Positions 11,496-13,451 of a DNA stretch of 64,000 nucleotides are shown here, piece by piece. The notes below the pieces were generated by a model that worked only from the letters and a program-made list of their open reading frames with translations, was not told the origin of the DNA and ran no database searches. Each line of letters starts with the position of its first letter. Position 1 is the stretch's first letter. The DNA is from Nitrosopumilus sp. (GTDB lineage: Archaea > Thermoproteota > Nitrososphaeria > Nitrososphaerales > Nitrosopumilaceae). The translations under genes were made by a program, and so were the position numbers. The stretch covers positions 1,984,001-2,048,000 of the forward strand of contig OZ240211.1 of NCBI GenBank assembly GCA_965197525.1, given 5' to 3'.

Positions 11496-11878
11496 AACAA
11501 TATGCTAATTATCTGATAACAATCATGTATTAGGTATTTATTAAGAATATCTCCTTACGCTGTTGAATCCTAGGGAGATCATTATTGTACTGTTATCCCA
11601 CTGCAATTTTTTGATGTAAAAACAATCTTAAGAATCCGATTATGTAATATATAACTGGAATAACTCGTTATTCTTTATCTTTGTTTCATTCATTATTAAT
11701 TACAAATTATCAATCTATGTAAAAACCAACTTGTGACACTCCAAAACACCTATGTTAAAACATCCGGGCACAGCCACGCGTGGTTTCCATTTGGCCTTCG
11801 ATCCACGCCTACAATACACGTGTATATTTTTAAAGCTATCGCTAGGAACAAAACTGCAACGGATGTGTGACCGGCTGG

Positions 11879-12979
11879 CTATTCTGTGCCCTGCATAGAC
11901 TGTCGAACACTGTTCATTCTCTTCATCTTTCTGCCATATCTTTGTACATTGCGTGACTTGTACGGTTCCCTGAAGGTCAGTATGGCCCAAATGATTCGTA
12001 TCATCTTGTTTGCCACATGTGTTACTGTAATCACATGTTTGCCGCCATGTCTTTTTTTGCATCTCTCATAGAACTCCTTTAACTTGTCATCGTGTCTTGC
12101 TGCCACGTTTGCTGCTTGAATAAGTATCCAGTTTATTCTTCCGTTTGCTGCCTTTTTCATGCGGCCATGATGTGTTACATCACCTGATTGGTAGACGGTG
12201 GGACACATGCCTGCCCATGAGACCAAGTGTTCGGGGGTTTTGAATCTTGATATGTCCCCAATCTCTGATACGACAAGCATTGATGCAAATACATCCAGTC
12301 CTGTCATGCTCATAAGCAGTCTTGCATCATCGTTTACTGCGGCCTGTTTGTCTATCTCTGTTTCGACATTTGTTATCTCTTCTGTGACATGTGCAATTCT
12401 TTTGGCACAGTTCTTCAGTATCAGGTTGTCGTTTGGTCTTTTCAGTTCTGTATGTGAGAGCAGTCCGATGGCTTTTTTGCTGTACATGTTTGAGACGTTC
12501 AGTCTTACATCGTACTTGTCAAGCAGACCGTGTGTATAGTTGATAAGTGCAGTCCTTGCCTGGACCATGCTTATTCTGTACCTGAGCAGCTCTCTGGCAT
12601 CACGCAACGCAGATGGCGCCACATAACACTGGGGAATCATCTCTACACGAAGTATGTTGGCAATCTTTCGTGCATCGATGGGATCCGTCTTGACGTCGGT
12701 ATCTGATATTATCTTCATCTTGTAGGTGTTGGCAAGCTGGATTGGTATGTCGTGTTCCTCAAATGCCTCAAATGTCTTGAGCCACATGTTTCCTGTAGTC
12801 TCGCATGCAGCACGGCACTGCCCTCTTCTCCTGCCGTACTCTCTTTTCATCCTGCCTGCAAACTCTTTTGCGTCTTCTAGCGTATTGTCATATGTAGTTT
12901 CCTCTAGTATTCTTCCCTTGTCATCCATGACACATACTACGCATTTTCTCTTGCTAATGTCTATTCCAATATTTCTCAT
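11879..12979 (-). CDS. IS110 family transposase/recombinase (DEDD_Tnp_IS110 plus Transposase_20)
   Basis: IGIDISK, ACETTG, KTDPIDA (DEDD), SWAGMCPTVYQSG (catalytic Ser loop), VANKMIRIIWA. A GGAGGTGA SD precedes the ATG at 12979. Confidence 0.95.
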   Translation of the reverse strand: MRNIGIDISKRKCVVCVMDDKGRILEETTYDNTLEDAKEFAGRMKREYGRRRGQCRAACETTGNMWLKTFEAFEEHDIPIQLANTYKMKIISDTDVKTDPIDARKIANILRVEMIPQCYVAPSALRDARELLRYRISMVQARTALINYTHGLLDKYDVRLNVSNMYSKKAIGLLSHTELKRPNDNLILKNCAKRIAHVTEEITNVETEIDKQAAVNDDARLLMSMTGLDVFASMLVVSEIGDISRFKTPEHLVSWAGMCPTVYQSGDVTHHGRMKKAANGRINWILIQAANVAARHDDKLKEFYERCKKRHGGKHVITVTHVANKMIRIIWAILTFREPYKSRNVQRYGRKMKRMNSVRQSMQGTE

Positions 12980-13010
12980 CCTTTTTATCACCTCCTTGCG
13001 GATTGTTTTT

Positions 13011-13128
13011 GATGGATCGGAGGCTGCAATCACCTATCAGTGCGCGAGGCACAGGAACGCAGCAGCTCGGATTGCCCCATTCAAACTAAAGTGCGCGAAG
13101 CACATGTTTCACAAGGGGTCGATCCATC
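13011..13128. ncRNA. Candidate bridge RNA of the IS110 element
   Basis: Outer stem GATGGATCG/CGATCCATC, two near-identical hairpins GTGCGCGA(G/A)GCAC (13040-52, 13091-103), each flanked by internal loops matching the element junctions. Confidence 0.65.
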
Positions 13129-13451
13129 ATCTAGACTACGACGAGGATGTTTTTACATGCATTCAAACTACCGTTGCTTAAACTATGCCAAAGTATTTTT
13201 TCAAAAACTTTCTATTAGAAACTAATTTGTTATATTAAACAGGTTTGAGACGATCAATTCGGCAAATTCAATCAAACCCTTACATCCAAACTACATTATG
13301 TATTTTTCCCCTATTATACATACAAGTCACACTTTTTAATTAAAATATTTATCTTCCAATTCCTTTACCGGTTTATCTTGTCTGAGCATCTTTAAGATAT
13401 GAACATGTGTATTATTTAACACATCGTATCTTGACTGGATGTAAATTTACA

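What the first reader, a model, noticed from the sequence alone, without database searches (positions are those of the whole stretch)
11750..13170. IS110 with a readable bridge RNA whose guides fit the IS621 layout on the strand antisense to the transposase
Seen: the element is bounded by CT cores (11750-51, 13168-69) with a 13/14 subterminal IR. Upstream of the transposase, 13011-13128 folds into a 9-bp outer stem holding two parallel domains, each capped by GTGCGCGA(G/A)GCAC. The 5' arm of domain 2, CATTCAAACTA (13078-88), is identical to the element's end plus core (13160-70). The 5' arm of domain 1, CAATCACCT (13027-35), matches the flank plus core AAAACACCT (11743-51) at 7/9. The 3' arms end in AG with looser, 1-nt-offset complementarity to the right target (AACG) and right donor (ACA). 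Known: IS621 bridge RNA has a target loop then a donor loop, a CT core, and left guides identical to the top strand. Inference: that order holds here only on the + strand, opposite to the transposase, implying either an antisense bridge RNA or a sense RNA with mirrored geometry (the circle junction would create TTTTAACATA facing the transposase). Either would be an unusual archaeal programmable recombinase.
Basis: partly seen in the sequence, partly recalled or inferred. Interest (0 to 1): 0.8.

Follow-up and report, generated by a model that had tools for sequence, protein, structure and literature searches.

The report
Archaeal IS1111-type element with sense bridge RNA
This is an ordinary-in-kind but nicely readable RNA-guided insertion sequence of a sponge-associated ammonia-oxidising archaeon: its guide RNA most likely lies on the same strand as the transposase, not antisense, and aims the element at the ends of other mobile elements.

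Summary
The boundaries, the core, the loop assignment and the antisense idea do not hold.

I compared four copies in this genome with about 40 related elements from other Nitrososphaeria. Unoccupied copies of the target sites were also available. Together they show the following (sense = minus strand):
- The element body is 11749-13163.
- It is flanked by a 2-bp core, TG, which reads CA on + at 11747-48 and 13164-65. The core is not CT.
- The loop nearer the left end (13075-13118) is the target loop. Its 5' arm is complementary to core plus right flank. Its 3' arm equals left flank plus core plus the first bases of the element.
- The second loop (13020-13068) is the donor loop. Its 3' arm, AUAGG-UG, equals the element's right end plus core and is conserved family-wide.

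A top-strand match lying 5' of the bottom-strand match is the published IS1111-type seekRNA order. The closest named relatives, ISHvo9/10, are already listed as IS1111 group with a left-end bridge RNA.

Three lines favour the sense strand: fold energies, G-U versus A-C counts, and wobble opposite the core. No RNA data were available.

Verdict: a new member of a known kind.

The parts
11739..11746 (-). Right half of the insertion site (RT; sense TTTTGGAG), outside the element
   Evidence: Follows the core at the right-end junction. It matches the target-loop 5' arm at only 3 of its first 6 positions, so this copy sits in an imperfect site.
11747..11748 (-). Core copy at the right-end junction (sense TG, + strand CA)
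   Evidence: TG lies at both junctions in every family member examined except c4, whose right junction reads CG. Unoccupied target copies carry a single TG.
11749..13163 (-). Body of the insertion sequence (1415 bp)
   Evidence: Four copies, 97-100% identical, lie at different loci. Boundaries are set by comparison with unoccupied sites.
11749..11753 (-). Last five bases of the right end (LD; sense ATAGG), read by the donor-loop 3' arm
   Evidence: The D3 arm AUAGG-UG equals right end plus core. AGG, AGA and GGA variants change together in arm and end across the family.
11752..11765 (.). Right-end subterminal inverted repeat
   Evidence: 13/14 match with 13145-58. It begins 3 bp inside the end.
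11823..11845 (-). BRE/TATA-like box in the right end, pointing outward (sense ..CTAGCGATAGC TTTAAAAATATA)
   Evidence: An AGC-TWTAAA motif is conserved at the same place in Nitrosopumilaceae relatives. Promoter function is my inference.
11879..12979 (-). Transposase/recombinase gene (366 aa)
   Evidence: Pfam DEDD_Tnp_IS110 and Transposase_20. NCBIfam 'IS110 family RNA-guided transposase', 229 bits. D7, E60, D99, D102 and S265-G266 are invariant in the family alignment.
12988..12995 (-). Shine-Dalgarno-like GGAGGTGA ahead of the ATG
   Evidence: Conserved in the family alignment of the non-coding region.
13011..13128 (-). Bridge RNA core, closed by outer stem P1 (13011-19 with 13120-28)
   Evidence: Covariation. 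Conserved architecture in 43 related non-coding regions.
13020..13068 (-). Donor loop: stem P3 (13020-27 / 13059-68), 5' arm D5 13053-58, hairpin 13040-52, 3' arm D3 13028-39
   Evidence: The D3 core GAUAGRUG is conserved across the family and equals the right end plus TG. No robust partner was found for D5.
13075..13118 (-). Target loop: stem P2 (13075-78 / 13115-18), 5' arm T5 13104-14, hairpin 13091-103, 3' arm T3 13079-90
   Evidence: The reverse complement of T5 is A-TG-TTTCACAA, meaning core plus right flank. T3 is UU-UAGUU-UG-AAU, meaning left flank plus core plus the first 3 bases of the element. Both covary with flanks family-wide. P2 shows CCCC/GGGG, CTCC/GGAG and CCTC/GAGG variants.
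13145..13158 (.). Left-end subterminal inverted repeat
   Evidence: It begins 5 bp inside the end.
13164..13165 (-). Core copy at the left-end junction (sense TG)
13166..13170 (-). Left half of the insertion site (LT; sense TAGTT), outside the element
   Evidence: Equals the T3 guide 5/5. In c3 and c4 both the guide and the flank read AACT(T/C) instead.

Best explanation
The element is an IS110-family insertion sequence of the IS1111 type, with a DEDD recombinase and 14-bp subterminal inverted repeats. Its left-end 5' non-coding region encodes a bridge/seek RNA on the same strand as the transposase.

The RNA (about 13128 to 13011, read on the minus strand) has an outer stem and two internal loops.

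Loop 1 is the target loop:
- The 5' arm pairs with the top strand of core TG plus about 6-8 nt of right flank.
- The 3' arm has the sequence of about 5 nt of left flank plus TG, so it pairs with the bottom strand. It runs on into AAU, which matches the first bases of the element.

Loop 2 is the donor loop:
- The 3' arm, AUAGG-UG, has the sequence of the element's right end plus core.
- I could not assign the short 5' arm.

Recombination at the TG core inserts the excised circle without a target duplication beyond the core.

Two guide variants coexist in this genome. The first (c1, c2) is aimed at TAGTT-TG-TTTCAYAA, the terminal inverted repeat of an IS5-like element. The second (c3, c4) is aimed at AACTY-TG-TTTCCYAA, the ends of related miniature elements. 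The window's copy c1 sits in a partial match, TAGTTTGTTT.

Shown here: the anatomy, guide-flank covariation, the core and boundaries from unoccupied sites, and the strand preference of the fold.

Inferred only: that the RNA is made, binds the protein and guides recombination, and that a TATA-like box in the right end drives it across the circle junction.
For: Family and copies:
- Pfam and NCBIfam place the protein in the IS110 RNA-guided transposase family.
- The catalytic D, E, D, D and S-G residues are invariant in the family alignment.
- Four copies lie in this genome.

Guide and flank change together among these copies:
- 13086 and 13088 change together with 13168 and 13170.
- 13111 and 13112 fit each copy's right flank. 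c4 matches 8/8 and c2 matches 7/8.

Guide-flank fit across 26 and 24 non-redundant relatives:
- The right-flank guide matches 4.1 of 6 positions, against 2.1 +/- 0.23 when elements and flanks are re-paired (0 of 10000 reach it).
- The left-flank guide matches 4.5 of 5, against 1.76 +/- 0.24 (0 of 10000).

Unoccupied sites:
- A paralogue of c2's target at G000 1061630 reads AAAC-TAGTT-TG-TTTCATAACATGCC, continuous and with a single TG. It is the terminal repeat of a DDE-transposase IS.
- c4 lies in the end of a miniature element whose intact copies read AACTC-TG-TTTTCC.
- A Cenarchaeum relative gives the same picture.

Donor arm: GAUAGRUG is conserved family-wide and tracks the AGG, AGA and GGA variants of the right end.

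Strand:
- The sense strand folds more stably in 33 of 36 relatives, by 5.9 kcal/mol on average.
- RNAalifold gives -19.7 for sense and -12.2 for antisense.
- For the same helices, 97.5% of cells pair in sense and 90.1% in antisense.
- The dinucleotide opposite the core is CA (16 elements), CG (16) or UA (3), while the DNA core is TG. All three pair with TG by Watson-Crick or wobble only if the RNA is sense.

Literature:
- In IS1111-type seekRNAs the top-strand match lies 5' of the bottom-strand match, and the two overlap in the target (PMC11187229).
- The ISHvo9/10 cluster is tabulated as IS1111 group with the bridge RNA in the LE.
- ISHvo10 is the best named hit, at 31.5% identity and E 2e-42.
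Against: - There is no direct RNA evidence. The only RNA run is held as unstranded contigs and shows neither start nor strand.
- For this particular copy the two strands fold equally well over the core (-42.7 vs -43.0). Over 186 nt the + strand has the better z-score (-2.54 vs -0.91).
- The helix P3 has two possible registers. This weakens part of the G-U count.
- The relatives are not phylogenetically independent.
- The fourth guide, for the left end of the element, was not found (best z 3.6 among about 130 tests).
- The window's own copy matches its right-flank guide at only 3 of 6 positions.
- No circle junction was seen in reads or in the genome.
Confidence: 0.8

Rival explanations
1. The bridge RNA is transcribed from the + strand, antisense to the transposase. 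It would have the IS621 layout: a target loop then a donor loop, left guides identical to the top strand, and a CT core.
For: - In this copy the + strand folds as well as or better than the minus strand.
- A T5 run follows the fold on the + strand.
Against: - CT is GT at the right boundary of c3 and c4.
- Unoccupied sites place the crossover at CA/TG.
- The antisense strand folds worse in 33 of 36 relatives. It leaves A-C mismatches where the sense strand has G-U: 90.1% against 97.5% of cells paired.
- In 19 of 36 elements the antisense RNA would mismatch the core.
- The TATA-like TTTTTATC upstream on + is the complement of the ribosome-binding region. It is absent in relatives, for example L017 and L062.
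Confidence: 0.06
2. Both strands are transcribed. The sense RNA is the guide, and an additional antisense RNA over the 5' untranslated region dampens transposase expression, as antisense RNAs do in some other insertion sequences.
For: - In this copy only, a TATA-like box and a downstream T-run lie on the + strand.
- The fold energies of the two strands are equal in c1 and c3.
Against: These + strand signals are not conserved in relatives. Nothing requires this RNA.
Confidence: 0.1
3. The structured 5' region is only a protein-binding or translational control element with no guide function. On this view the identities to the ends are leftovers of end duplication.
For: - The stems and hairpins are conserved.
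- A copy of the P1-like motif GTGGATCGAAGG also lies in the right end (11796-11807).
Against: - The loop arms change together with flanks that lie outside the element, in many unrelated insertion sites.
- The family is annotated as RNA-guided, and this has been shown experimentally for relatives (PMC11187229, PMC11208160).
Confidence: 0.03

Closest known systems
IS1111-type seekRNA / bridge RNA elements (ISEc11, ISPa11, ISKpn4; Siddiquee et al. 2024, PMC11187229)
   Same: - A DEDD recombinase.
- Subterminal inverted repeats of 7-17 bp (14 bp here).
- The segment complementary to the top strand of the target lies 5' of the segment complementary to the bottom strand, and the two overlap at the crossover.
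- Site-specific insertion into the ends of other mobile elements, as the titles cited for IS4321/IS5075 describe.
   Different: - The RNA lies upstream of the transposase rather than downstream.
- A second, donor-type loop is clearly present.
- The host is an archaeon, so any junction promoter must be of the TATA/BRE type.
ISHvo9 / ISHvo10 of Haloferax volcanii (ISfinder; Durrant et al. 2024, Supplementary Table 5)
   Same: - The closest named transposase: 31.5% identity, E 2e-42.
- Tabulated as IS1111 group with the bridge RNA detected in the LE.
- The ISHvo10 right end also finishes in CATAGG-TG, and its upstream region carries CAUAGGUG.
   Different: - Only distantly related in sequence.
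- Its non-coding region is longer and GC-rich.
- I did not work out its loops in detail.
IS621 bridge RNA (IS110 group; PMC11208160, PMC13626964)
   Same: - The RNA lies in the left end, upstream of the recombinase and on the same strand.
- The target loop comes first, then the donor loop.
- There is a 2-bp core covered by guides from both sides.
- Extra bases after the left guide match the partner DNA, like handshake guides.
   Different: - Within each loop the two guides sit on the opposite arms.
- The core is TG, not CT.
- The subterminal repeats are long.
- The recombinase is only weakly similar (E 1e-8).

Membership tests
IS110 family (DEDD RNA-guided recombinase elements) | Recombinase with DEDD_Tnp_IS110 (RuvC-like) and Transposase_20 domains and catalytic D, E, D, D plus S | tested here: met
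   Pfam E 1.9e-24 and 5.8e-24. NCBIfam NF033542, 229 bits against a cut-off of 140. D7, E60, D99, D102, S265 and G266 are invariant in the family alignment.
IS110 family (DEDD RNA-guided recombinase elements) | Site-specific insertion at a short core shared by donor and target, with no longer target duplication | tested here: met
   TG lies at both junctions. There is a single TG in unoccupied paralogues of the target.
IS110 family (DEDD RNA-guided recombinase elements) | Non-coding end encoding a structured RNA whose loops match target and donor | tested here: met
   Structure covariation. Guide-flank permutation tests. The donor arm tracks the right end.
IS110 family (DEDD RNA-guided recombinase elements) | The RNA is expressed, binds the recombinase and is required for transposition | not testable with these tools
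   Only unstranded contigs of one metatranscriptome touch the element.
IS1111 group | Subterminal inverted repeats of about 7-17 bp | tested here: met
   A 14-bp repeat matching 13/14, lying 3 bp and 5 bp inside the ends.
IS1111 group | Top-strand-complementary guide lies 5' of the bottom-strand-complementary guide | tested here: met
   On the sense RNA, T5 is the reverse complement of core plus right flank, and T3 equals left flank plus core. The definition is from PMC11187229.
IS1111 group | Long non-coding region and RNA downstream of the transposase (right end) | tested here: not met
   The RNA lies upstream (13011-13128), and only about 130 bp lie downstream. The same exception is on record for ISMtsp17 and for ISHvo9/10, tabulated as 'LE'.
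IS1111 group | Transposase clusters with IS1111-group transposases | tested here: inconclusive
   The best named hit is ISHvo10, which Durrant's table labels IS1111. No tree with reference IS1111 and IS110 sequences was built here.
IS621-type (IS110 group) bridge RNA layout | Left guide on the 5' arm, right guide on the 3' arm, CT core | tested here: not met
   On the sense strand the arms are swapped and the core is TG. On the antisense strand the apparent fit rests on a CT that is not conserved among copies.

The most novel reading that the evidence does not exclude
The donor loop may carry only one readable guide, for right end plus core. The left end of the element would then be recognised by three things: the 3-nt AAU tail of the target-loop arm, the protein reading the 14-bp subterminal repeat, and a complete archaeal BRE/TATA promoter in the right end that fires across the circle junction. 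That would be a three-guide, promoter-in-one-end variant of bridge recombination, in an archaeon where no bridge recombinase has been tested.
Probability: 0.25. Interest if true: 0.5.

Novelty: new member of a known kind. Interest (0 to 1): 0.35.

Why it matters
- It gives a clean, fully annotated example of an archaeal bridge/seek RNA. Relatives were found in 64 of 401 Nitrososphaeria genomes searched.
- Natural reprogramming is visible inside one genome. Two guide variants differ by a few bases and sit in two different classes of target.
- The targets are the ends of other mobile elements: IS5-like terminal repeats and miniature elements.
- It shows that a reading made from a single copy can pick the wrong strand, core and loop assignment. 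In this copy the G-U pairs that mark the strand in relatives happen to be G-C.
- It does not reveal a new mechanism.

Tried and rejected
- Rfam: no family matched in 11000-14000.
- Sequencing runs: all holders are kept as contigs, so strand, ends and expression level cannot be read. Laying X1, X3, X12 and X4 showed no contig joining across the element and no circle junction.
- Empty sites in relatives: for c3, homology stops about 130 bp before the junction. For c4, the search instead revealed the miniature-element repeats.
- An exact pattern search for the intact Cenarchaeum miniature element found nothing. A shorter pattern worked.
- A fuzzy scan for the subterminal repeat was uninformative, giving 400 chance hits.
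- Comparing covariance-model scores as a strand test was considered and dropped. A model learns A-C 'pairs' from its own seed, so the test is not fair.
- No significant partner was found for the donor-loop 5' arm or for the 3-nt tail of the donor-loop 3' arm.
I abandoned it once the family alignment showed which arm is conserved and which varies.

Full report
**What is there.** The window lies in a 2.21-Mb single-contig genome. Its relatives are Nitrosopumilaceae and Cenarchaeum-like archaea, and the reads that hold it come from sponge samples. A 366-aa protein is encoded on the minus strand at 11879-12979. It carries DEDD_Tnp_IS110 and Transposase_20 domains and scores 229 bits on NCBIfam 'IS110 family RNA-guided transposase'. 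The element has four copies in the genome, 97-100% identical: c1 is the window copy, plus c2, c3 and c4. There are also diverged and truncated relatives.

**Check of the observation.**
- CT at 11750-51 and 13168-69.
- A 13/14 subterminal inverted repeat.
- The fold at 13011-13128, with two domains capped by GTGC-N5-GCAC.
- The 11/11 and 7/9 identities.

The CT does not hold as a boundary. Copies c3 and c4 have GT at the right-hand position while the left stays CT.

**Widening the comparison.** I collected related elements from GTDB genomes, metagenome contigs and a search of 401 genomes of the class. Of those 401, 64 have a close relative. The upstream non-coding regions of 43 non-identical elements align into one architecture, read on the transposase strand:
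- left end, then subterminal repeat;
- stem P1;
- loop 1 (CCCC, arm, hairpin, arm ending in TGAAU, GGGG);
- linker;
- loop 2 (GAGCUGCUG, arm, hairpin, CUGAUAGRUG plus 3 nt, GCAGC);
- P1', then ribosome-binding site, then ATG.

The decisive point is which arm is conserved. The 3' arm of loop 2 is nearly invariant, and it equals the element's own right end plus TG (..CATAGG-TG). The AGG, AGA and GGA variants change together in arm and end. Both arms of loop 1 vary from element to element. Loop 2 is therefore the donor loop and loop 1 the target loop.

**Guides.** In loop 1 the reverse complement of the 5' arm reads A-TG-(right flank). The 3' arm reads (left flank)-TG-AAU, where AAU matches the first bases of the element.
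- Over 26 non-redundant elements, the right-flank guide matches 4.1 of 6 positions, against 2.1 +/- 0.23 when guides and flanks are re-paired (0 of 10000 reach it).
- Over 24 elements, the left-flank guide matches 4.5 of 5, against 1.76 +/- 0.24 (0 of 10000).
- Within this genome the guide differences between c1/c2 and c3/c4 follow the flanks: UAGUU against AACUU, and GUGAAA against GGGAAA or AGGAAA. c4 matches its right flank 8/8 and c2 matches 7/8 plus a G-T wobble.

**Core and boundaries.** Three sets of unoccupied sites fix the crossover.
- *c2.* It sits in the terminal inverted repeat of a 1.4-kb IS. That IS encodes a DDE transposase (Pfam DDE_Tnp_1 and DDE_Tnp_1_5). An intact copy of the repeat reads AAAC-TAGTT-TG-TTTCATAACATGCC.. 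and is identical to c2's right flank for more than 45 nt. In c2, TAGTT-TG abuts the left end and TG-TTTCATAAC follows the right end.
- *c4.* It sits in the end of a miniature element whose intact copies read AACTC-TG-TTTTCC.
- *The Cenarchaeum relative.* It sits in another miniature element whose intact copies carry ..GTT-TG-GCTATG.. at the insertion point.

The core is therefore TG (CA on +), at 11747-48 and 13164-65, and the body is 11749-13163.

The genome holds further unoccupied near-perfect sites for both guide types, and they are ends of IS5-like elements and their miniature derivatives. The flanks of the window's own copy are unique sequence. That copy matches only TAGTTTGTTT.

**Which strand.** Complementarity to double-stranded DNA cannot tell the strand, so I used the asymmetry between G-U and A-C.
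- The core region folds more stably as sense RNA in 33 of 36 elements, by 5.9 kcal/mol on average. The three exceptions include c1 and c3, where the strands are equal within 0.3 kcal/mol. This explains why a reader of this copy alone could not tell.
- RNAalifold gives -19.7 for sense against -12.2 for antisense on the same 27 sequences.
- For the same 29 pairs on 14 gap-free relatives, 97.5% of cells pair in sense and 90.1% in antisense.
- The dinucleotide of the loop-1 5' arm that faces the core is CA in 16 elements, CG in 16 and UA in 3, while the DNA core is TG throughout. All three pair with TG, by Watson-Crick or wobble, only if the RNA is sense. An antisense RNA would mismatch in 19 of 36.
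- The preferred natural targets add G-T and U-G wobbles of the same polarity.
- The TATA-like box upstream on the + strand is simply the complement of the ribosome-binding region, and it is absent in relatives.

Caveats: the relatives are not independent, helix P3 has two possible registers, and no stranded RNA data exist.

**Expression (inference).** The right end carries a conserved AGC-TWTAAA box (sense; + 11823-11845). It lies about 75 bp from the end and points outward. In an excised circle it would read across the junction into the bridge RNA and the transposase. That would be the archaeal counterpart of the junction promoter of IS621 and ISEc11. In the integrated copy it faces the DNA ligase gene.

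**Comparison with what is known.**
- Siddiquee et al. report that IS1111-type seekRNAs carry the top-strand match 5' of the bottom-strand match, overlapping in the target, and that IS110-type RNAs have the reverse order. They also report that IS1111 elements have subterminal repeats, and that a few have an upstream non-coding region.
- The present element fits the IS1111 type on repeats and on guide order. It fits the exception on location.
- Its best named relative is ISHvo10. Durrant et al. list the ISHvo9/10 cluster as IS1111 group with the bridge RNA detected in the LE.
- ISHvo10 shares the CATAGG-TG end and an internal CAUAGGUG.
- Compared with IS621, the loop order (target, then donor), the position and the strand are the same. 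The arms within each loop are swapped and the core differs.

**What remains open.**
- No guide for the left end of the element was found.
- The 3-nt tail of the donor arm is unassigned.
- No circle junction was observed.

**Earlier notes of this scan.** First-stage notes on the other copies (c2, c4) already read the RNA as sense, with the same guides. I reached the model before looking (note), and I tested it independently.

**Verdict.** This is a real and well-defined RNA-guided insertion sequence. The antisense proposal is not supported. The 'mirrored' geometry is the known IS1111-type arrangement. It is a new member of a known kind and of moderate interest.

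Noticed in passing
window 11796-11807 (minus strand GTGGATCGAAGG): The right end carries a near-copy of the 5' strand of the outer stem P1. 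It could pair with 11 of 12 bases of CCUCCGAUCCAU at the 3' side of the bridge RNA. It is conserved in position in relatives. It may be an alternative pairing in a transcript that crosses the circle junction, or a protein site.
   Followed up: partly
G000:C1:1061630-1063001 (L103) and 1422693-1424054 (L104): A 1.4-kb IS with a DDE transposase (IS5-like) and terminal repeats TAGTTTGTTTCATAAC.TGCCACA. The repeat is the natural target of the c1/c2-type guide, and c2 sits in one such repeat.
   Followed up: partly
G000:C1:827071, 2176448, 1235494, 1256153 (about 125-140 bp each): A miniature inverted-repeat element with ends ACTCTGTTTTCCAATT and 9-bp target duplications. c4 is inserted in one end. 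At 1256153 a second, diverged right-end remnant (GATGTTTTAACAC) sits at the same position.
   Followed up: partly
L009, L011, L013, L015 (G000:C1:1812662, 474707, 1892604, 1832217): Solo left-end fragments of 40-95 bp. One (L009) stops exactly after the target-loop 3' arm, whose DNA mimics a left junction. These may be products of recombination at pseudo-sites.
   Followed up: no
L018-L020 / L083-L089 (Cenarchaeum genome G012): Three copies of the relative lie at the same point inside a miniature element with GGCTGTGTCCTAC inverted repeats and 9-bp duplications, so they may have spread as passengers. Their left end is 8 bp shorter, as if the crossover had used the second TG of ..CATG.
   Followed up: partly
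G000:C1:1601251-1603486: A long array of roughly 174-bp tandem repeats next to c4.
   Followed up: no
about 20 loci in G000, e.g. 165122, 180593, 211054: A highly repeated segment ..GCGGAAAGAGACTCCAAGAGGACATGCAACAACATCGTAAA.. turned up in a fuzzy scan. It is an unrelated multi-copy element or gene start.
   Followed up: no
window 11317-11508: A low-complexity stretch with an ORF rich in Met, Thr, Val and Ile. Reads appear cut at 11446-11499.
   Followed up: no
G000:C1:1456814-1458129 (L005): A second family member (57% aa identity) with a stop in the transposase, a poly-G/purine insert in the linker between the loops, and UA instead of UG in the donor arm. It is probably inactive.
   Followed up: no
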